Positions 5,612 through 56,771 are shown, numbered from the stretch's first letter. The stretch is 64,000 bases of DNA from an uncultured Candidatus Saccharibacteria bacterium (GCA_964532425.1 CAZHIA010000001.1:44889-108888); one strand, 5' to 3'. The notes: generated by a model not told the origin, from the sequence alone. Made by a program: numbers and translations.

Positions 5612-5733
5612 TACAACCTAAGCGTTATCGCGAGTCCGGCGAGAGCACTGGCTCTATGACCCGGCGGCAACCCTGAGTAGCCCGGCTATTCGATGGGTGC
5701 CCCATCCAGCCCATTAGTAATGGGAAAGATGAT
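5612..5733 (+). ncRNA. SAM-I (S-box) riboswitch
   Basis: TTATCgcGAG...GGCAACC...GGGTGCCCCATCCAGC...AAAGATGA matches the S-box consensus blocks. Lies directly upstream of metK. Confidence 0.75.
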
Positions 5734-5744
5734 TTGATTTTGCG

Positions 5745-5776
5745 CTCAAACCCTTTCCCGCGAAAGGTTTTTTGTT
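5745..5776 (+). terminator. riboswitch expression-platform terminator
   Basis: CCCTTTC-ccgc-GAAAGG followed by TTTTTTG, abutting the metK start. Confidence 0.6.
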
Positions 5777-5777
5777 T

Positions 5778-6812
5778 ATGTACCAGAGTAAGTTCTATAC
5801 GGCCGAGAATGTGGCCCTCGGGCATCCGGATAAGGTCTGTGATCAGATCTCGGACGCTATTTTAGATGAGATTCTCCGGCAGGATTCAAACGGCCGCGTG
5901 GCCATGGAAGCGTTCGGCAGCCACGGGCTTTTGGTTCTTGGTGGCGAGGTTACGGCTGAGGCTGAGGTTGATTATGAAGCTGTAGCCCGCCGGGTTTATA
6001 GCGATATCGGCTACCATGAGCCGCTGGAGGTGTTAGTTCATATTGCTTGCCAGTCGCCGGATATTGCCCGCGGCGTGGATACGGGCGGCGCTGGTGATCA
6101 GGGAATTATGTACGGCTATGCCACGGACGAGACGCCGGAATACTTGCCGACCGGCGTGGTGCTGGCCAGGCAACTGGCGCAAGGACTGGCGGAACTCGGC
6201 CGCAGCCAGCCGGGGATTGGGCCTGACGGTAAGACGCAAGTAACTATGGAGAACGGCATGGTGTGCCGCGTGCTGGTCAGTTGCCAGCACGGCGAAGGTA
6301 TGGAACTGTCCGAGCTGCGGCAGATGCTCGTCGAGCGAGTAATTGTTCCGGTCTGCGGCAGGTTGCAGGACGGGCAGATCCTGGTCAATCCGACGGGCCG
6401 GTTCGTGCAAGGAGGGTTTGCAGCGGATGCGGGCCTGACCGGCCGCAAAATTATGGTTGATACCTATGGCGGGCTGGCGCCCCATGGCGGCGGCGCATTC
6501 TCCGGCAAGGATCCTTCCAAGGTCGACCGCAGTGCCGCGTACCTGGCGCGCTTAGCCGCCAAACATATGGTATCTGCCGGGCTGGCGCACGAGTGCCTGG
6601 TGTCGGTGGCATATGCCATCGGCCAAGAGCAGCCGCTTATGGTTTCCGCGGTTTCGGAGAGCGGGCAGGATCTTTCGGCGGCAGTGAAGCGGCATTTCGA
6701 TTTCAGGCCGCTGGCAATTATTGAACGGTTAGGCTTGCGCCGGCCAATCTATCGACAAACTGCCTGCTTCGGCCATTTTGGCCGGCCGGGTTTGCCGTGG
6801 GAAGAGTTATAA
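5778..6812 (+). CDS. metK: S-adenosylmethionine synthetase
   Basis: GHPDKVCDQISDA and GGGAFSGKDPSKVDRSAAY motifs. Start taken at ATG 5778; the track calls TTG 5772. Confidence 0.9.
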   Translation: MYQSKFYTAENVALGHPDKVCDQISDAILDEILRQDSNGRVAMEAFGSHGLLVLGGEVTAEAEVDYEAVARRVYSDIGYHEPLEVLVHIACQSPDIARGVDTGGAGDQGIMYGYATDETPEYLPTGVVLARQLAQGLAELGRSQPGIGPDGKTQVTMENGMVCRVLVSCQHGEGMELSELRQMLVERVIVPVCGRLQDGQILVNPTGRFVQGGFAADAGLTGRKIMVDTYGGLAPHGGGAFSGKDPSKVDRSAAYLARLAAKHMVSAGLAHECLVSVAYAIGQEQPLMVSAVSESGQDLSAAVKRHFDFRPLAIIERLGLRRPIYRQTACFGHFGRPGLPWEEL

Positions 6813-10052: not shown

Positions 10053-10453
10053 ACGGCGGGCAGCTGCCGCTTGCCCCTACGGGGACCAGGTCTTTGCAGC
10101 GTAGGGGCCGCCGACCCTGCCTGCCGGCAGGCAGGAGGCGTCCTCTCGCACAAAGCCTAAATCCTAAATTTTAAATCCTTAATCCGTATTGATAGCCAGT
10201 CTCTTCAAAACCCGGTACAATGAGAGCAGGCTGTGACTTAATTTTTCTAGTTTCTATTTTTCTATTTATTATGTTGGCAATTATTTTCGGCCTTGTTGCT
10301 ATCGGAATATTCGTCCTGTTTCGGGAGGCGTTTTCGCATGCACCGACTTCGCCGCAGCGGCCAAAGCCGGCCGCTTCGGGTGATGCCCTCGTTCGCTTCG
10401 GCCTCGGGCAGCGCCGCAAGAGTCAGCGCCGATTGCATATAGAAAAGCCGGCC

Positions 10454-11755
10454 ATGGAGTTTAATCCCGAGAACAGCCGGGCTTTGGATTTGCTCGAGAA
10501 TTCCCGCCGCAATATTTTTCTGACCGGGCGGGCCGGGGCGGGTAAATCTACCTTGCTCATGTACTTTCGCGCTACTACCAAAAAGAACGTGGCTGTGGTC
10601 GCGCCGACCGGTGTGGCTGCCATTAACGTGCAGGGCCAGACCATTCATCGCTTCTTCCGCTTTAAGCCGGATATTACGCTCGACAAAGTGCCGAAGTATT
10701 TGGACCGCGACCGGGATCTCTATAAAGAATTAGACACACTGGTCATAGACGAGATCTCCATGGTGCGGGCTGATCTGCTCGATTGTGTGGATGCGTTCTT
10801 GCGTATGCACGGACCGGAACCGGGCAAGGTTTTCGGCGGCGTGCAAATGGTGTTCATGGGAGACTTATACCAATTGCCGCCCGTGGTCAAGGACGAGGAA
10901 GAGGAAATTTTCCAGACGCACTATCGCACGGAGTTTTTCTTTTCCGCCAAGTGCCTGCAGCAGACCACGCTCATTCCGCTGGAACTGACCCGCGTGTACC
11001 GCCAGAGCGATGAAGGCTTTAAGAAAATTTTAAACGACATCCGCGACGGTACAGTCAGTGACCAGGACTTGGCAGTTTTGAACTCCCGCGTTGACCGCGA
11101 TTTTTCGCCTGCACAGGAAGAGGGTATTGTCCGCGTATGGTTGGTACCGACGCGCGCCCAAGCCGCGGAAATTAATGGCTGGCACATGGAACATCTGCCT
11201 GGCGCCATGCGCATGTACCACGGTTCGGTAGAGGGTAGGTTTTCCGAGCGCGACATGCCAACACCGTTGGAATTGGAGTTGAAAGTCGGTACGCAGGTTA
11301 TGCTGCTCAATAACGACAGCAAGGGGCGCTGGGTTAACGGCGACGTGGCCCGGGTGGTAGATTTGCGCCAGGATTTTATCCGCGTCAAGTTCGACGACGG
11401 CACGTTCGATGATGTCGAACGCCATACCTGGGACGCGTTCCGTCATACGCTCGAAAAGGGGAGTAATAAGATTGTCGCGGTTTCCGACGGCAGTTTTACC
11501 CAGTTTCCGGTCAAGCCGGCTTGGGCGTTAACCATCCACAAGTCGCAAGGTAAGACGTATGATCATGTGGCCATCGATTTAAGCCGCGGTACTTTTGCGG
11601 CCGGCCAGGCTTATGTGGCCTTGTCGCGCTGCCGCACGCTTGAAGGTCTTATTTTAAAAACCCCGCTGCGCCGCCATCACGTTATGATAGACAAGGAAGC
11701 CGCGGAGTTCATGAAGGTGGTATCATTTTTAGCGGAGAAGGGACATATCCCCTAA
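10454..11755 (+). CDS. PIF1-family 5'-3' DNA helicase (paralog 1)
   Basis: Walker A GRAGAGKST and the C-terminal TIHKSQGKTYDHVAIDLSRGTFAAGQAYVALSRCRTLEGL motif. Start set at 10454 by alignment with paralog 2. The track's start at 10220 adds a doubtful TM segment that overlaps an AT-rich repeat. Confidence 0.8.
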   Translation: MEFNPENSRALDLLENSRRNIFLTGRAGAGKSTLLMYFRATTKKNVAVVAPTGVAAINVQGQTIHRFFRFKPDITLDKVPKYLDRDRDLYKELDTLVIDEISMVRADLLDCVDAFLRMHGPEPGKVFGGVQMVFMGDLYQLPPVVKDEEEEIFQTHYRTEFFFSAKCLQQTTLIPLELTRVYRQSDEGFKKILNDIRDGTVSDQDLAVLNSRVDRDFSPAQEEGIVRVWLVPTRAQAAEINGWHMEHLPGAMRMYHGSVEGRFSERDMPTPLELELKVGTQVMLLNNDSKGRWVNGDVARVVDLRQDFIRVKFDDGTFDDVERHTWDAFRHTLEKGSNKIVAVSDGSFTQFPVKPAWALTIHKSQGKTYDHVAIDLSRGTFAAGQAYVALSRCRTLEGLILKTPLRRHHVMIDKEAAEFMKVVSFLAEKGHIP

Positions 11756-11837
11756 ATCACCGCTGAAGGTGCGCTGATTACGACGCTGAAAGGTCGCTTA
11801 TGTAGGGGCGGCCATTGGCCGCCCTGTCCGTGATTCA

Positions 11838-11865
11838 GTAGGGGACGGTCGCGACCGTCCCGTAC
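11838..11865. repeat. REP-like palindrome (family E): GTAGGGGACGGTCGCGACCGTCCCGTAC. Related copies at 11797-11822, 11937-11965, 21590-21613, 22897-22924, 46565-46590, 50870-50899 and 51115-51144.
   Basis: Near-perfect palindrome with the GTAG head typical of RAYT-mobilised REPs; eight copies in the window. Confidence 0.8.
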
Positions 11866-11983
11866 GGGATTCAGATCATTTTATCCAAATAAGAGCGTAT
11901 CAGAGTTCATTTCACACTGAATGATTGCATATATAGAGGCGGCCAATGGCCGCCCTATCCGTGAACCAGGAACTATAATAACA

Positions 11984-13865: not shown

Positions 13866-15968
13866 ATGTCCGAAGACAATTCTCCTCTTTACACGAAATC
13901 CTATTACGAAGAAGTCCGTAAAATCCACCCCCGCATGGGCAAGAAGTGGACTGCGGACGAAGACCAACAGCTTAAGAATGCCTACCTGCAATTCAAGGCG
14001 CAGCCGTCGGCGAATTTTGACGTGTTCCTGCAGGAACTGGTCGAGCAGTTCGGCAGGGCTTCGGGCGGCATTAAGGCAAGGTTAGCTAAATATTTTGAGG
14101 ACGTCCCGGGTTGGGACTATGGCCGCGATGCGTTCCGGCAGGAACAGCTCAATAAGGAGGCAGAGTCAGCCATTCCCAAAGACGACGAGGAGGTGCTGGT
14201 TCGGGCGTACCGCTTGTATGAAGAATCAAAAAATGAGACGTACATGGCCTTTTTACGGCGCATGTCGGAACGCCTTGGAAATATTGAGGGGAGGCTTATA
14301 ACGCACCGTTTATCGCAATTGGTCGGCGAGGTAAAAAAGTACAATAAGGAAGATGTAGGGGCGGCCAGTGGCCGCCCGCACCCAGGGAGTGATCGCGAAA
14401 AAAATACTCCCGACGTCTCAGATATCGACTTTTCTGGCAACCTTGAAGCAGGCGAGGCCTTGCGCCTTATGGAGCAGACCCGGGAAAATCTGTTTTTGAC
14501 CGGAGAGGCTGGAACCGGGAAATCGACCCTGCTGCAGTTCTTCCGCTATACCACCCAAAAGAACGTGGTGGTGCTCGCTCCGACCGGGGTGGCTGCTTTG
14601 AATGTGGAAGGCCAGACCATTCATTCGTTTTGCGGGTTCGGTCCGGATATTACGGTGCACAAGGTCAAGAAGCTAGGCCCATGGGCGCCCAAGCGCAAGC
14701 TGCTTAATAAGCTCGATGCGATTATTATAGACGAGATCTCCATGGTCCGCGCTGATCTGCTTGATTGCGTGGACAAGTTTTTGCGCATGAACGGGCCGAC
14801 TGGGACGCAAGCCTTTGGTGGCATTCAAATGATTTTCATCGGTGATCTTTATCAACTCCCGCCAGTATCCGCCGAAAGGCCTGTTGGCCAATCAGGCGGA
14901 CCCGCCACAATGTCCCGTTTTGGCGGGGCTTTGGGCGGGGAGAAGGGTTTTTATGGTGATCCTCTCCTGTCCCAATACGCCTCTCCTTATTTTTTTGATG
15001 CCCTTGCATATAAGCAGACGAAGTTCCACCACATCGCCCTCAAGCAAATGTACCGGCAGAAGGACCGGGTGTTCATCGACGTGCTGAATGCGGTGCGCAA
15101 CAATGCAGCCATGCAGGAACATTTGACCGTCTTAAACCAGCGCGCGCAGACTGCGGGTGCCAAGTTCACGTTCGAGAAATTTGCAATTTATTTAACTACT
15201 ACGAACCAACGCGCGCGGCAAGTGAATAATTTTTTCATTGAGCGCTTGAAGGGAGAGCTGAAGACTTTTCAGGGGCGCACTGCCGGAACCTTTGAGGACC
15301 GAGAGCTGCCCACAGACTTGAATTTGCAAATCAAGGTCGGCGCCCAAGTCATGATGCTCAACAACGACCGCAAGAAGCGCTGGGTCAATGGCACTATGGG
15401 GAAGATAGTTGCCATAGGTTTTGGTAATACCGATGTTGAGCAGGCCCGCGGCCTGCCCTCCCGGATGGAGAATGGTAGTGTGGTTTCTTCTCCCCAGGCG
15501 TGGGAAGATGCCCCGCAGGGGCAGAGAGGTCGAACCCTGGAAGCTGAAGATCAATCTCCCGAACTCACCTACGAACCCATCTCTCCATATGACTACCGCC
15601 CGCAATCTTCTGGCATGGTGGTAACCGTGGAATTGGAAACAGGGGAGACCGTAGACGTGACGCCGTTCACCTGGGAGATGCACAAGTTCGTGCTCGACAA
15701 GGAAACGGAGAAAATAGACATTCAGACCACGGGCACGTTCACGCAATACCCGTTCAAGTTGGCTTGGGCCGTGACCATACACAAGGCCCAGGGCAAGACG
15801 TTCGACAAGGTGTATGTGGATCTTTCCACCGGCACCTTCGCGCACGGCCAGCTCTACGTTGCCCTCTCGCGCTGCCGCACTCTGGAAGGTCTCTTCCTCC
15901 GCCGTCCCATCACCCCCGCCGACATCCTCCTCGACCAGCGCATTGTCCAATTTCTGAATTCGTTATAA
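13866..15968 (+). CDS. PIF1-family DNA helicase (paralog 2) with an ~200-aa N-terminal extension containing a Myb/SANT-like motif, plus two internal insertions
   Basis: Core ~65% identical to paralog 1 (GEAGTGKST ... TIHKAQGKTFDKVYVDLSTGTFAHGQLYVALSRCRTLEGL). N-terminus has GKKWTADEDQQLKNAYLQF...GGIKARL. Confidence 0.8.
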   Translation: MSEDNSPLYTKSYYEEVRKIHPRMGKKWTADEDQQLKNAYLQFKAQPSANFDVFLQELVEQFGRASGGIKARLAKYFEDVPGWDYGRDAFRQEQLNKEAESAIPKDDEEVLVRAYRLYEESKNETYMAFLRRMSERLGNIEGRLITHRLSQLVGEVKKYNKEDVGAASGRPHPGSDREKNTPDVSDIDFSGNLEAGEALRLMEQTRENLFLTGEAGTGKSTLLQFFRYTTQKNVVVLAPTGVAALNVEGQTIHSFCGFGPDITVHKVKKLGPWAPKRKLLNKLDAIIIDEISMVRADLLDCVDKFLRMNGPTGTQAFGGIQMIFIGDLYQLPPVSAERPVGQSGGPATMSRFGGALGGEKGFYGDPLLSQYASPYFFDALAYKQTKFHHIALKQMYRQKDRVFIDVLNAVRNNAAMQEHLTVLNQRAQTAGAKFTFEKFAIYLTTTNQRARQVNNFFIERLKGELKTFQGRTAGTFEDRELPTDLNLQIKVGAQVMMLNNDRKKRWVNGTMGKIVAIGFGNTDVEQARGLPSRMENGSVVSSPQAWEDAPQGQRGRTLEAEDQSPELTYEPISPYDYRPQSSGMVVTVELETGETVDVTPFTWEMHKFVLDKETEKIDIQTTGTFTQYPFKLAWAVTIHKAQGKTFDKVYVDLSTGTFAHGQLYVALSRCRTLEGLFLRRPITPADILLDQRIVQFLNSL

Positions 15969-20463: not shown

Positions 20464-20654
20464 CCTCCCTGTTTTAAATGTAATGCAGGCTCTTGGCCTG
20501 CTTGCAGGTGCAGTACTCTCCTCCTGGGATAGGAGGAGTACCCGCCACAGGCGGGGGAGGTGGTATAGAGAAGTTGCGATGTAAATGTAGTGCAGTCCCT
20601 TGGCCTGCCTGCTTGTAGGGAACGGTTTGAAACCGTTCCCAACGGATCCAAGAT

Positions 20655-21489: not shown

Positions 21490-21644
21490 GATTTGAGCTG
21501 TTTCCCTCTTCTCCTTCCAGGAGAAGATGTCCGCCTCCGGCGGACAGATGAGGTGATTATGTAGTGCAAGCCATTGACCTGCTGTTTCCTGTAGGGGCGG
21601 ATAGTATCCGCCGAAATCAAATAGTGTCATCCGGAATAAAAATA

Positions 21645-22835: not shown

Positions 22836-23200
22836 GTGTAGTGCAGGCCCTCTTGTCCGCCGAAGCCTTGGCGAAGGTGGATGACCTGCTCAGCCCCTGT
22901 AGGGGCGGATACCATCCGCCCGGGATTAAAGCAGACGAGGTAGAATGGTAAGTTTAAGCTGTCAGTAAATGTAGTGCAGGCCCTCGGCCTGCTGGGAGAT
23001 GGCGTTTCTCCCTCTCCTTATTCGCAGATCTGCCATAGTTTTAACGTAGGAGGACATAGGAGAGGATGAAGGTGAGGTTATTGACACAGAGAGTACTGAA
23101 GGTAGAGGTTGCAGTCACCCCCTCTCCTTGCATAGGAGAGGGTAGGGGTGAGGTTATTTGGTGTATGTAGTGCAGGCCCTTGGCCTGCAAGGTGCAGGAG
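22836..23200. repeat. cluster of hairpin repeats: family D (TGTAGTGCAGGCCCTTGGCCTGC; copies at 22838, 22968 and 23165), family E (22897) and CTCTCC/GGAGAG palindromes (23108-23160)
   Basis: Several dispersed families sit together here. D copies elsewhere: 9632, 9681, 20478, 20585, 21560, 46459 and 46517. Confidence 0.8.
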
Positions 23201-23536: not shown

Positions 23537-23798
23537 TCTGCATTTTCTCCTCTCCTTATGAGGAGAGGGATTAAGGGAGAGGTTGCAGTCACCCCCTCTC
23601 CTTGCATAGGAGAGGGTAGGGGTGAGGTTATAAACCCTCCTCTCTTTGCTCGAAGATCCAACGCAGCCTCGCGCGAAGTTGGATAAAGAGAGGGGTTAGG
23701 GGTTCCGTTGCATTTCCCCCTCTCTTTGTCTAAAGAGAGGGGTTAGGGGTGAGTTTAAAGCTAGGCACTATTTACTCGTTACTATTTACTCGTTCCCA

Positions 23799-35221: not shown

Positions 35222-35499
35222 AACAAATAATTGATATATATGCCGATCAACAAAGAATGGCACCTGAAGAACAGGATGCCGAAGAATGCGACACGGGAGC
35301 AACGTATAGCCTGGCATGAGGGGCATGCCAAGCATTGCTCGTGCCGGGATTCCAAGGCTCATCTTAAGAAACTAAAATCTTCCTAATCCGACCATGGGAC
35401 CATTCGCTCGAAAGGTCCGCTACCCTCAAATGCTTATTCGCACGAATAAGCACTCGGGGGTTTGCAGCAAAAGCAAAAAAACATTATTGGGGTGAATGT

Positions 35500-36204: not shown

Positions 36205-36300
36205 AGTTAGATCATTTGAATTACGATTCCCCGGAGTGCTTATTCGCACGAATAAGCACTCCGGGAAGAATACAACAAAAATATTAAGCGGAATAAAAGT

Positions 36301-36561: not shown

Positions 36562-36622
36562 CCAGTGCTTATTCGCACGAATAAGCACTGGGGCGGAGAG
36601 TGGGGTGGGGTGGGAGGGGAAT

Positions 36623-45342: not shown

Positions 45343-45464
45343 GTGGAGGTTTAGGTGAATGTTACCATGTAGGGCCGGTCGCGCCTGCCTGCCGGTAGGC
45401 AGGACCGGCCCCTACACAGTTACCCATGGTACAAAACCACCGGACCTTTCTATAGGAGGACTCT

Positions 45465-46385: not shown

Positions 46386-46662
46386 ATGTGTTCGTGATGC
46401 TTTGACGGGTACTTGTCTCTAAGACGGTGCCCGTCATTTTTAATCCATTGGAGAGGATTGTAGTGCAGGGCCACGCTAAGCGTGGCAGGGCCTTGCTCTG
46501 CCCAACATTCAACTATGCGGCAGGCCGAGGGCCTGCGCTACATTATTGGCAATCAGCGGACAAGGAACGGTCGCGACCGTTCCCTACAGGCAGACCCCCG
46601 GGCTTGCGCCACAGCCTTACAATAGACATCAAGGCCAGCACTGTATCTTCGTCTTACACAAC

Positions 46663-50021: not shown

Positions 50022-50555
50022 ATGAAAGTCAATCATACTGAAATCCAAATCATCCAAGACGACATTACCCGGCTTGCGGTCGACTGCATCGTCAATGCCG
50101 CGAACAAAAAATTGTCAGGCGGGGGAGGGGTGGACGGCGCCATCCACCGCGCGGCGGGGGATGAGCTGACCAAGGCCTGTTTGCGTTTGGGCGGGTGCAA
50201 TACCGGGGAGGCCAAGATTACGCTCGGCTACAATTTGCCGGCCAAGTTCGTTATCCATACGGTTGGGCCGGTCTATGGGGCTATGGACGGCATGGAAGCG
50301 TCCTATTTGGAAGACTGCTATAAAAATTCCCTGGCCTTGGCCGATGTGAAGCATATCAAGACCATTGCTTTTCCTTCTATTTCCACCGGCGCATACGGAT
50401 TTCCCATCGAGGAAGCGGCACCCATCGCACTCGAGAGTGTGCGGGAATATATAGAGGAGCATCCGGACACAGGACTTAAGCAAATTATCTTTGTCTGCTT
50501 TGACAGCACGGATGCGGGGGTATATAGAAGGACGGCGGGAGAAATGGGGATGTAG
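50022..50555 (+). CDS. macro-domain protein (ADP-ribose binding / O-acetyl-ADP-ribose deacetylase family)
   Basis: IQDDITRLAVDCIVNAANKKLSGGGGVDGAIHRAAG. Confidence 0.85.
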   Translation: MKVNHTEIQIIQDDITRLAVDCIVNAANKKLSGGGGVDGAIHRAAGDELTKACLRLGGCNTGEAKITLGYNLPAKFVIHTVGPVYGAMDGMEASYLEDCYKNSLALADVKHIKTIAFPSISTGAYGFPIEEAAPIALESVREYIEEHPDTGLKQIIFVCFDSTDAGVYRRTAGEMGM

Positions 50556-50584
50556 AGACAGGTCGTGACCTGTCCGTATAGGGG

Positions 50585-51118
50585 ATGAATATGTTTCAAA
50601 GAAAAGTCCATCGTTTGCAAGAATACGACTATTCCCAGCCAGGGTATTATTTTGTTACCCAGTGCGTACAAGATCGGAGATGTTGTTTGGGAGCGATGGC
50701 AGGAGGGGAGGTAATGTTGAATGAATACGGGAAGATCGTGCAGCGACAATGGCAATGGTTGGCCGAACATTTTCCAAATGTACAATTAGATGAATTTCAG
50801 ATCATGCCCAACCACGTGCATGGGATTGTGATCATAACCCCGGCGGGAAACGGCCAGGGTGGTGTGTTTGTAGGGGACGGTCGCGACCGTCCCGTACAGA
50901 AACCGCTTCCCGATTTAATCGGCGCATTTAAAACTACATCGTCAAAACTAATCCATCGTGCAGGTTTTACCGATTTCTCTTGGCACCGGTCCTTCTACGA
51001 CCACATCATCCGTAAAGACGAATCGTTAGACAAAATCAGGGAATACATTCGTACCAATCCCAAGCAGTGGGAATTGGATGAGGAGAATCCAAAAAAATTT
51101 AATAATGTTATTTCGTAG
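50585..51118 (+). CDS. REP-associated tyrosine transposase (RAYT; IS200/IS605 TnpA-like HuH Y1 transposase)
   Basis: HuH motif MPNHVHGIV. Catalytic-Tyr region SWHRSFYDHIIR. A 30-bp REP (GTAGGGGACGGTCGCGACCGTCCCGTACAG) lies in frame at 50870-50899 and another copy overlaps the stop codon (51115-51144). Confidence 0.8.
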   Translation: MNMFQRKVHRLQEYDYSQPGYYFVTQCVQDRRCCLGAMAGGEVMLNEYGKIVQRQWQWLAEHFPNVQLDEFQIMPNHVHGIVIITPAGNGQGGVFVGDGRDRPVQKPLPDLIGAFKTTSSKLIHRAGFTDFSWHRSFYDHIIRKDESLDKIREYIRTNPKQWELDEENPKKFNNVIS

Positions 51119-51160
51119 GGGCGGGTCGCGACCCGCCCGTACAGAAAAAGACGACAAAAT

Positions 51161-56402: not shown

Positions 56403-56771
56403 GCCCCCTATATTTTTTTCTTCTTAATTAGTGTAAAAAATACACCATATGTAAACTATCCATTGGGTATGTCATTGCGAGGAGTACAATCGATCGAAGA
56501 TCCGCCATATCCGTCTTGGCGGAGGAGGCGGACAAAGCAATCTTTATTTTTTACTCTTTGTTCATGGGTAGGAAAGATTGCCACGCTCGGATGCACCTGC
56601 CTACCGGCAGGTAGGCTCGCTCGCAATGACAGATAAGTCGCAGGTTTTGCCAGGGAGCCTTTGGGCCACTGCTTGATGTCGCGTTGGGCAGCGGTATCCA
56701 TGGGCTCCCCGGCAAGCCCTGCCTCAAAAGCAGAGCCTGAAGCAGTACCTTGTTTGGCATAAGGAGGAACT

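What the first reader, a model, noticed from the sequence alone, without database searches (positions are those of the whole stretch)
50585..51150. RAYT transposase with a REP element inserted in frame and another over its stop codon; it is the likely driver of the GTAG-headed REP families
The gene has the HuH motif (MPNHVHGIV) and the catalytic-Tyr region (SWHRSFYDHIIR) of REP-associated tyrosine transposases.

A 30-bp palindrome, GTAGGGGACGGTCGCGACCGTCCCGTACAG, lies inside the ORF at 50870-50899. It adds about 10 codons (..FVGDGRDRPVQK..) between the HuH motif and the downstream helix, without breaking the frame. A second copy overlaps the stop codon.

The same REP family recurs at 11797-11965, 21590, 22897 and 46565. 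Two other GTAG-headed families (D, TGTAGTGCAGGCC...; F, ..GTAGGGGC..CCTGCCTGCCGGCAGGCAGG) are also scattered across the window.

A REP inside the coding sequence of its own RAYT is unusual. It could be self-targeting, or a way to regulate the transposase.
Basis: partly seen in the sequence, partly recalled or inferred. Interest (0 to 1): 0.7.

Follow-up and report, generated by a model that had tools for sequence, protein, structure and literature searches.

The report
RAYT transposase gene carrying in-frame REP
This is a REP-associated tyrosine transposase gene with copies of its own hairpin repeat just upstream, inside its reading frame and over its stop codon; the arrangement is real, but it was already described in 2018 as the hallmark of this transposase subclass.

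Summary
ORF 50585-51118 encodes a Y1/HUH transposase of the RAYT (TnpA-REP) kind. A 30-nt GTAG-headed palindrome lies in frame at 50870-50899 (codons 96-105). A second copy covers the stop codon (51115-51144).

The interpretation needs correcting. The in-frame REP is not an oddity of this lineage. About 61 of 80 homologous genes, from species spread over many phyla, carry a strong GTAGGG...CCCTAC palindrome in the same loop after the HuH motif. The DNA is what is conserved, not the peptide. The palindrome is read in both stop-free frames. In one set of genes it stays 99% identical while synonymous sites are scrambled. It also matches the REPs flanking its own gene (31 of 62 loci against 2.5 expected).

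Quentin, Siguier, Chandler and Fichant (2018, PMC6006769) described this as the "remarkable and unique feature" of TnpA-Y1 subclass 2.4, which equals RAYT Group 4. So this is a new member of a known kind.

Why the REP sits there is still unresolved. It may be a tolerated passenger kept uniform by the enzyme's local activity, or a selected cis-element. The claim that this gene drives every GTAG-headed family in the window is untested.

The parts
50552..50581 (+). Upstream flanking REP (GTAGAGACAGGTCGTGACCTGTCCGTATAG). Its GTAG head contains the TAG stop (50553-50555) of the Macro-domain gene, and it ends 3 nt before the RAYT start codon.
   Evidence: (family D1). Its stem differs from the other two copies by compensatory changes.
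50585..51118 (+). RAYT / TnpA-REP gene, 177 aa, of the subclass 2.4 (RAYT Group 4) type.
50813..50821 (+). HuH motif codons (H77-V78-H79 within PNHVHG).
   Evidence: H77 and H79 are invariant in 51 sequences.
50870..50899 (+). Internal in-frame REP (GTAGGGGACGGTCGCGACCGTCCCGTACAG), codons 96-105 (VGDGRDRPVQ), in the loop between the HuH strand and the next helix.
   Evidence: In the model the loop is disordered.
51044..51061 (+). YIRTNP motif: the inferred catalytic Tyr154 and metal-binding Asn158.
   Evidence: The alignment to 4ER8 places Y115 and N119 on these residues. Y154 and N158 are invariant.
51115..51144 (+). Downstream flanking REP (GTAGGGGCGGGTCGCGACCCGCCCGTACAG). Its GTAG head contains the RAYT stop TAG (51116-51118).
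   Evidence: It differs from the internal copy by two compensatory base-pair changes.
11838..11867 (+). Intergenic copy of the same REP family (1 mismatch in 30), paired with a different-stem REP at 11802-11824.
46564..46587 (-). Intergenic copy of the same REP family (GTAGGGAACGGTCGCGACCGTTCC).

Best explanation
The locus is a REPtron. It has one RAYT (TnpA-REP) gene of subclass 2.4 / RAYT Group 4, bracketed by two cognate GTAG-headed REP hairpins. A third copy lies in frame in the variable surface loop between the HuH strand and the following helix.

The protein is an HUH/Tyr single-strand DNA endonuclease. By analogy with the studied E. coli, Stenotrophomonas and Marinomonas enzymes, it should recognise the folded REP plus its GTAG foot on single-stranded DNA, cut next to it and rejoin strands. 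That activity would spread and homogenise REPs.

Inferred mechanism for the in-frame copy: REP insertion or copying is strongly biased to the immediate neighbourhood of the gene. Inside the gene, only the disordered loop tolerates 30 extra bases, and only the two frames that do not read GTAG as a TAG stop can survive. The copy is then kept like the genome's other REPs by repeated re-insertion, strand transfer or gene conversion, while the encoded 10 residues are a passenger.

Shown: the identity of the gene, the three-REP anatomy, conservation of the site across the family, and conservation at the DNA level together with co-variation with the flanks. Inferred: enzyme activity on these REPs, the local (cis) bias as the cause, and neutrality of the peptide.
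For: Identity of the gene:
- Pfam Y1_Tnp scores 27.8 bits, above its cut-off of 23.
- The profile search of solved structures has 4er8_A (TnpAREP) as its best hit.
- The AlphaFold model has pLDDT 86 and pTM 0.82. The top 30 Foldseek matches in the PDB are all Y1 transposases, and 4er8_A has the best TM-score (0.59) and rmsd (2.8 A).
- The motifs NHVH and YIRTNP fit those tabulated for subclass 2.4, NH[IFV]H and YIxNNP.

Anatomy:
- There are three REP copies with compensatory stem changes.
- The REP-coded residues 96-105 lie in an unstructured, low-confidence loop (residues 85-107).

Across the family:
- The internal palindrome is strong (score 9 or more) in 61 of 80 loci and is a perfect or near-perfect 28-mer in 35.
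- The GTAG foot is in frame 0 in 24 genes, frame 1 in 20 and frame 2 in none.
- The same palindrome is read as RGTACRAPT in L032 and L048 and as VGARHAVPLQ in L051.
- In nine genes with 62% protein identity, third-codon identity at invariant HuH residues is 52%, yet the 22-nt REP core is 99% identical.
- The internal core recurs within 400 nt of its own gene in 31 of 62 loci. Permutation gives a mean of 2.5 and a maximum of 8 in 2000 trials.
- Hairpin density is 2.1 per kb in the 200 nt upstream and 1.8 per kb in the 200 nt downstream, against about 0.1 per kb beyond 2.4 kb. Of 76 intragenic hairpins, 71 fall in the fifth and sixth tenths of the gene.
- The closest relative with DNA available (P0002, 67% identity, locus L081) also has upstream, internal and downstream REPs. 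All three have a TCTAGA centre, where the window has TCGCGA or TCGTGA.

Literature: Quentin et al. 2018 report the same feature and judge the loop to be peripheral.
Against: - No enzyme of subclass 2.4 / Group 4 has been tested biochemically; the 2021 study covered groups 2 and 3 only. Activity on these REPs is therefore an analogy.
- Three results fit selection on the DNA hairpin as well as, or better than, a passenger kept uniform by turnover. Internal occupancy (about 61 of 80) exceeds that of either flank (33 hairpins in 78 upstream flanks, 27 in 76 downstream flanks). Internal copies are at least as perfect as flank copies (better in 21 comparisons, equal in 14, worse in 5). The core is 99% identical across saturated divergence.
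- The NCBIfam REP_Tyr_transpos model scores 45 bits, below its cut-off of 80.
- The window protein has WH where the subclass has WQ, and its REP foot is imperfect (GTAG...GTAC).
Confidence: 0.72

Rival explanations
1. The in-frame REP is a selected cis-element rather than a passenger. The hairpin, in the mRNA or in the single-stranded gene DNA at the replication fork, would be bound or cut by the gene's own product, or would slow translation or trigger decay. That would limit transposase output, or physically tie the enzyme's specificity to a resident copy of its substrate so that the gene and the REP population co-evolve.
For: - Occupancy of the internal site (about 61 of 80 loci) is higher than that of either flank.
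- Internal copies are as perfect as flank copies or better (21 better, 14 equal, 5 worse).
- The 22-nt core is 99% identical where synonymous sites are only 52% identical.
- All three copies in a locus change together between the window (TCGCGA centre) and L081 (TCTAGA centre).
Against: - Some intact-looking family members have no strong loop palindrome (score below 9), for example L011, L033, L036, L037, L040 and L072.
- Position within the loop, copy number (tandem and dimer forms), reading frame and degree of decay all vary. That pattern looks like turnover rather than a fixed regulatory site.
- There is no U-tract, so it is not an intrinsic terminator.
- No experiment addresses the idea, and the authors who described the feature regarded it as having little impact.
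Confidence: 0.22
2. The segment is an ordinary protein loop (VGxGRDRSL) conserved for a protein function, and its palindromic coding is incidental.
For: V96 and G97 are at least 90% conserved, and the consensus VGxGRDRSL appears in the 50 closest homologues.
Against: - The same DNA palindrome is translated in two frames into unrelated peptides.
- Amino acids co-vary as base pairing predicts: N with S, D with P, and T with L-S.
- Synonymous positions are frozen only inside the palindrome.
- The palindrome matches extragenic copies beside the same gene.
- The region is modelled as disordered.
Confidence: 0.03
3. The gene is an autonomous IS200/IS605-type insertion sequence whose left and right end hairpins are the flanking palindromes, rather than a domesticated single-copy RAYT.
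For: Hairpins lie at both ends. The fold also matches the IS608 and ISDra2 transposases. NCBIfam transpos_IS200 gives a weak hit with E = 0.0056.
Against: - The flanking hairpins are members of a dispersed family of GTAG-headed short repeats found away from any transposase gene.
- There is only one copy of the gene in 64 kb.
- The YIxxNP and W motifs and the lowest rmsd point to TnpAREP 4ER8.
- The gene is packed tightly between housekeeping-type genes, sharing stop codons with the REPs.
Confidence: 0.03

Closest known systems
TnpA-Y1 subclass 2.4 of Quentin, Siguier, Chandler and Fichant 2018 (BMC Genomics 19:475, PMC6006769), equal to RAYT Group 4 of Bertels et al. 2017 (PMC5581495)
   Same: - HuH motif of the NH[IFV]H type, and a YIxNNP-type Tyr motif.
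- A variable insertion between strand beta3 and helix alphaC.
- GTAG-headed long 'double-foot' REPs flanking the gene, and REP sequences inside the gene that keep the reading frame, located between the HuH and Tyr motifs.
- A scattered distribution over many phyla.
   Different: - The window protein has WH instead of WQ, and YIRTNP instead of YIxNNP.
- Its REP foot is imperfect (GTAG...GTAC rather than ...CTAC).
- I could not run the authors' subclass models, so the assignment rests on motifs, architecture and homologues.
E. coli TnpAREP / REPtron (PDB 4ER8; RAYT Group 2, subclass 2.2)
   Same: - An HUH/Tyr fold; this is the best structural superposition (TM 0.59, rmsd 2.8 A).
- The catalytic Tyr and Asn align.
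- The gene is flanked by GTAG-headed REPs.
   Different: - About 18% sequence identity.
- E. coli REPs have bulged stems and are not found inside the tnpAREP gene.
- The NCBIfam REP_Tyr_transpos equivalog cut-off is not reached (45 bits against 80).
Intragenic REPs in unrelated genes (Di Nocera, De Gregorio and Rocco 2013, PMC3733652)
   Same: GTAG-tagged palindromes inserted in frame in coding regions, adding about 10 or more residues, presumably in tolerant loops.
   Different: Those insertions are sporadic and sit at different sites in different species. Here the same loop of the cognate transposase is occupied in about three quarters of family members.

Membership tests
RAYT / TnpA-REP (Y1 HUH transposase superfamily) | HuH metal-binding motif on a beta strand | tested here: met
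   PNHVHG is present. H77 and H79 are invariant in 51 sequences. They lie on strand E77-84 of the model.
RAYT / TnpA-REP (Y1 HUH transposase superfamily) | Catalytic Tyr on the C-terminal helix, with Asn or Gln four residues downstream (the YIxxNP motif) | tested here: met
   Y154 and N158 in YIRTNP are invariant. They align to Y115 and N119 of 4ER8.
RAYT / TnpA-REP (Y1 HUH transposase superfamily) | Y1 transposase fold | tested here: met
   The model has pLDDT 86. The top 30 PDB matches are all Y1 transposases, and 4er8_A gives TM 0.59 and rmsd 2.8 A.
RAYT / TnpA-REP (Y1 HUH transposase superfamily) | Curated sequence-model thresholds | tested here: inconclusive
   Pfam Y1_Tnp scores 27.8 bits, above its cut-off of 23. 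NCBIfam REP_Tyr_transpos scores 45 bits, below its cut-off of 80.
RAYT / TnpA-REP (Y1 HUH transposase superfamily) | Gene flanked by GTAG-headed REPs that are also dispersed in the genome (a REPtron) | tested here: met
   Flanking copies lie at 50552 and 51115. Dispersed copies lie at 11838 and 46564.
RAYT / TnpA-REP (Y1 HUH transposase superfamily) | Single or low copy number per genome, in contrast to insertion sequences | not testable with these tools
   There is one copy in the 64-kb window. The rest of the genome is not available, and exact look-ups found no source contig.
RAYT / TnpA-REP (Y1 HUH transposase superfamily) | Binds and cleaves single-stranded cognate REP DNA | not testable with these tools
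   This needs biochemistry. No Group 4 enzyme has been assayed in the papers read.
TnpA-Y1 subclass 2.4 / RAYT Group 4 | Motifs NH[IFV]H, WQ and YIxNNP | tested here: inconclusive
   NHVH fits. The window has WH where the homologues have Q134 in at least 90% of sequences. YIRTNP has T in place of the first N.
TnpA-Y1 subclass 2.4 / RAYT Group 4 | Variable insertion between beta3 and alphaC that contains in-frame REP sequence | tested here: met
   The REP lies at codons 96-105, in loop 85-107 between E77-84 and H108-125. The same holds in about 61 of 80 homologues.
TnpA-Y1 subclass 2.4 / RAYT Group 4 | Long or 'double-foot' REPs (5' GT[AG]G ... C[TC]AC 3') | tested here: inconclusive
   The homologues have mostly perfect GTAGGG...CCCTAC palindromes. 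The window copies end in GTAC or GTAT, so the second foot is imperfect.
TnpA-Y1 subclass 2.4 / RAYT Group 4 | Assignment by the authors' own subclass profiles or tree; 8-aa insertion at the end of alphaB | not tested
   The profiles are not available here, and the alphaB insertion was not examined.

The most novel reading that the evidence does not exclude
The in-frame REP may be a selected cis-element, not a tolerated passenger. It would be a resident copy of the substrate inside the transposase gene. Through binding or cleavage by the gene's own product, or through an mRNA hairpin, it would limit expression and lock the enzyme's specificity to the REP population. This would explain why the internal site is occupied more often than the flanks, and why its sequence stays frozen across phyla while synonymous sites are saturated.
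Probability: 0.22. Interest if true: 0.7.

Novelty: new member of a known kind. Interest (0 to 1): 0.3.

Why it matters
For annotation: the VGxGRDRSL, RGGSRTAPT and RGTACRAPT-type peptides seen in many "transposase" entries from uncultured bacteria are translated REP hairpins, not protein motifs. Reading-frame calls around such genes are also shaped by GTAG feet that supply stop codons.

For biology: the locus adds a clean three-REP example to RAYT subclass 2.4, the only subclass in which the enzyme's own gene carries its substrate. The family-wide numbers obtained here cover site occupancy, the use of two frames, a frozen DNA sequence and co-variation with the flanks. They turn the open question of passenger versus cis-element into a simple recoding experiment. 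They do not overturn anything already known.

Tried and rejected
- Exact-sequence look-ups meant to find the source contig or the 94%-identical relative's contig returned nothing (P0001, the RAYT itself and the DUF2207 neighbour). The organism stays unidentified, and short-range comparison was possible only with the 67% relative.
- The single-sequence search of solved structures found nothing. The profile search was needed.
- My first motif regex caught only 21 of 80 loci. I replaced it with the reported match coordinates.
- Rfam at gathering threshold finds no RNA family at the locus.
- Native protein loop: rejected on the two reading frames, base-pair-like amino-acid co-variation and frozen synonymous sites.
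- Autonomous IS200-type element: rejected because the end hairpins are dispersed short repeats and there is only one gene copy.
- Intrinsic terminator: rejected because no T-run follows the internal hairpin.
- I did not establish whether a degenerate older REP lies just upstream of the internal one (50841-50869, encoding PAGNGQGGVF). The resemblance is weak.

Full report
**1. What is in the sequence**

ORF 50585..51118 (+ strand, 177 aa) contains PNHVHG and a C-terminal YIRTNP. Three related GTAG-headed palindromes sit at this locus (family D1).

- 50552-50581, GTAGAGACAGGTCGTGACCTGTCCGTATAG.
- 50870-50899, GTAGGGGACGGTCGCGACCGTCCCGTACAG.
- 51115-51144, GTAGGGGCGGGTCGCGACCCGCCCGTACAG.

The internal copy starts exactly at codon 96 and encodes VGDGRDRPVQ. 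The GTAG of the downstream copy contains the RAYT stop codon (TAG, 51116-51118). The GTAG of the upstream copy contains the stop codon of the preceding Macro-domain gene (50553-50555; Macro domain identified).

The three stems differ by compensatory changes, so each copy still folds. As single-stranded DNA they give -6.1, -12.6 and -13.7 kcal/mol, and the internal copy has z = -4.8. The 30-mer with up to 3 mismatches is not expected by chance: 0 hits in 100 shuffles.

**2. Other REPs in the window**

- True members of the same stem family lie at 11838-11867 (1 mismatch) and 46564-46587(-).
- The window holds 19 GTAG-headed hairpins.
- These fall into several stem subfamilies:
  - GTAGGGGCGGCCAnTGGCCGCCC at 11802 and 14355.
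  - GTAGGGGCGGATAnnATCCGCC at 21591 and 22899.
  - GTAGGGAACGGTTTGAAACCGTTCC at 20615.
  - Family D, GTAGTGCAGGCC..GGCCTGC, about six copies.
  - Family F, GTAGGGGC..CCTGCCTGCCGGCAGGCAGG, at 574, 10101 and 45369/45415.
- Compared with the ORF list, most copies lie between long ORFs.
- A six-frame search with a profile built from the homologues finds only this one RAYT gene in the 64 kb.

**3. What the protein is**

- Pfam Y1_Tnp scores above its gathering cut-off (27.8 against 23).
- NCBIfam REP_Tyr_transpos is the best NCBIfam hit but falls below its cut-off (45 against 80).
- A profile of 51 sequences finds E. coli TnpAREP (4ER8) as the best solved relative. That alignment places Y115 and N119 of 4ER8 on Y154 and N158 here. 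Both residues are invariant among the homologues, while the Tyr in SFYDH is not.
- The AlphaFold model is confident (pLDDT 86, pTM 0.82). The exception is residues 85-107, which are coil with pLDDT near 50. This loop lies between the HuH strand (77-84) and the next helix (108-125), and the REP-coded residues 96-105 are inside it.
- The 30 best PDB matches are all Y1 HUH transposases. 4ER8 gives the best TM-score (0.59) and by far the lowest rmsd (2.8 A).

**4. Is the in-frame REP specific to this lineage? No.**

The protein search returned 1696 homologues. In the 50 closest, the segment has the consensus VGxGRDRSL, with V96 and G97 at least 90% conserved.

A scan of one genome per species returned 80 loci. 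They come from Patescibacteria, Chloroflexota, Bacteroidota, Nitrospirota, Omnitrophota, Nitrosomonas, Planktothrix and others. In 61 of the 80, the loop just after the HuH motif contains a strong palindrome. In 35 of them the palindrome scores 14 or more, usually a perfect 28-mer GTAGGG...CCCTAC. A minority lack it, for example L011 (Pontibacter), L036 (Flavobacterium), L033, L037, L040 and L072. Others carry tandem, dimeric or decayed copies.

**5. Is the DNA or the peptide conserved? The DNA.**

- The GTAG foot lies in codon frame 0 (GTA GGG, read as VG) in 24 genes, in frame 1 (xGT AGG) in 20 and never in frame 2, which would read TAG as a stop.
- The identical palindrome GTAGGGGCACGGCATGCCGTGCCCCTAC is translated as RGTACRAPT in L032 and L048, and as VGARHAVPLQ in L051.
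- Within the frame-0 group, amino acids co-vary as base pairing requires: N with S, D with P, and T with L-S.
- Nine genes share the GGSRTAP-type REP but are only 62% identical as proteins. Third-codon positions of the invariant HuH residues are 52% identical, whereas the 22-nt REP core is 99% identical.

**6. Does the internal copy match the REPs of its own genome? Yes.**

- The 20-nt core of the internal palindrome, allowing up to 2 mismatches, recurs within 400 nt of its own gene in 31 of 62 loci. Random re-pairing of cores and loci gives a mean of 2.5 and a maximum of 8 in 2000 permutations (raw positions).
- Density of GT[AG]G-headed hairpins is 2.1 per kb in the first 200 nt upstream and 1.8 per kb in the first 200 nt downstream. 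Beyond 2.4 kb it is about 0.1 per kb.
- Of 76 hairpins inside the genes, 71 fall in the fifth and sixth tenths of the gene.
- Internal copies are at least as perfect as the flank copies: better in 21 comparisons, equal in 14 and worse in 5.
- The closest relative for which I could get DNA is P0002 (67% identity, locus L081). It has the same three-REP layout, and all three copies have a TCTAGA centre where the window has TCGCGA or TCGTGA.
- The 94%-identical protein P0001 has the same loop peptide.

**7. Comparison with the literature**

[quoted passage not shown] Their model places that region at the periphery of the protein, and they suggest it has little impact on activity. They also describe "double-foot" REPs (GT[AG]G ... 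C[TC]AC) for this subclass. Its listed motifs are NH[IFV]H, WQ and YIxNNP, and it equals RAYT Group 4 of Bertels et al. 2017 (Group 4 features).

Di Nocera et al. 2013 describe in-frame REPs in other genes, and flanking REPs that overlap RAYT gene ends. Corneloup et al. 2021 give biochemistry for groups 2 and 3 only. A second full-text search found no other paper on the feature.

The window gene fits subclass 2.4 in architecture and in most motifs. The deviations are WH for WQ, YIRTNP for YIxNNP, and an imperfect second foot on the REP.

**8. Mechanism**

Shown:
- The gene is a RAYT-type Y1 enzyme in a REPtron.
- The in-frame element is a REP.
- The site is a hotspot across the whole family.
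- The DNA, not the peptide, is maintained, and it evolves in concert with the flanking copies.

Inferred: the enzyme acts preferentially near its own gene, so REPs pile up at both gene ends and inside the gene. Within the gene only the disordered loop, and only the two stop-free frames, survive selection on the protein. Continued strand transfer or gene conversion then keeps the internal copy like the rest of the REP population.

I give about 0.9 to the identity and anatomy, and about 0.55 to the passenger-with-homogenisation mechanism. The main rival, at about 0.2-0.25, is that the hairpin is itself selected as an autoregulatory or specificity-coupling element. Its support is the higher occupancy and perfection of the internal copy. 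Against it are the members that lack the REP and the variability in position, copy number and frame.

**9. The "driver" claim**

It is reasonable that this RAYT mobilises the GTAGGG(G/A)ACGGTCGCGACCGT-type family. For families D and F there is no evidence either way. Only one RAYT is visible, but only 64 kb is visible too, and the literature usually finds one RAYT per REP type.

**10. Verdict**

It is a new member of a kind already described, not a new phenomenon. Interest is modest. The residual interest lies in the unanswered question of why this subclass keeps its substrate inside its own gene.

Noticed in passing
window 5622-5735 (+): A SAM riboswitch (Rfam RF00162, 55.5 bits against a gathering score of 44.4) lies just upstream of ORF 5772..6812.
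   Followed up: no
window 14355-14377 (+), inside ORF 13866..15968: A GTAG-headed REP (GTAGGGGCGGCCAGTGGCCGCCC) lies in frame 0 (codons 164-171) of the longest ORF for a PIF1-like helicase, upstream of the helicase domain that starts near residue 201. Either this is a second in-frame REP, or the true start codon lies downstream of it. A paralogous PIF1-like helicase is at 10220..11755.
   Followed up: partly
window 11802/11838, 20587/20615, 21561/21591, 46587/46541(-): REPs of different stem subfamilies occur as closely spaced pairs in the same orientation, with heads 28-46 nt apart. These are composite clusters in direct rather than inverted orientation.
   Followed up: no
window 45369-45415: A long 'double-foot' composite, GTAGGGCCGGTCGCGCCTGCCTGCCGGTAGGCAGGACCGGCCCCTAC, with GTAGGG heads on both strands around the family-F core. 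Related copies are at 574 and 10101, and a headless copy is at 56596.
   Followed up: no
window 35431-35452, 36230-36265, 36562-36591; also 23120-23142 and 23594-23616: Other palindromic repeat families without a GTAG head..GTGCTTATTCGCACGAATAAGCAC.. (three copies, stems up to 17 bp) and CCCTCTCCTTGCATAGGAGAGGG (two identical copies).
   Followed up: no
L039 3005-3592; L058, L075, L024 (loop regions near 10250-10400): Some homologues carry several REP-derived units in the loop. L039 has a tandem array (GQARDAGK repeated three times). L058 and L075 have REP pairs separated by a spacer, which look like REPIN-type dimers inside the gene.
   Followed up: no
L008 8905-9411: This Chitinophagaceae homologue has an in-frame stop in the W motif (FA*QRSFHD) and only a degenerate loop repeat. 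It is probably a decaying pseudogene.
   Followed up: no
window 50552-50555 and 51115-51118: Two adjacent genes (Macro-domain and RAYT) both end on the TAG within the GTAG head of a REP. P0001, the 94% relative, has a different C-terminus (NPINIKKS against NPKKFNNVIS), which suggests that REP turnover reshapes gene ends.
   Followed up: partly
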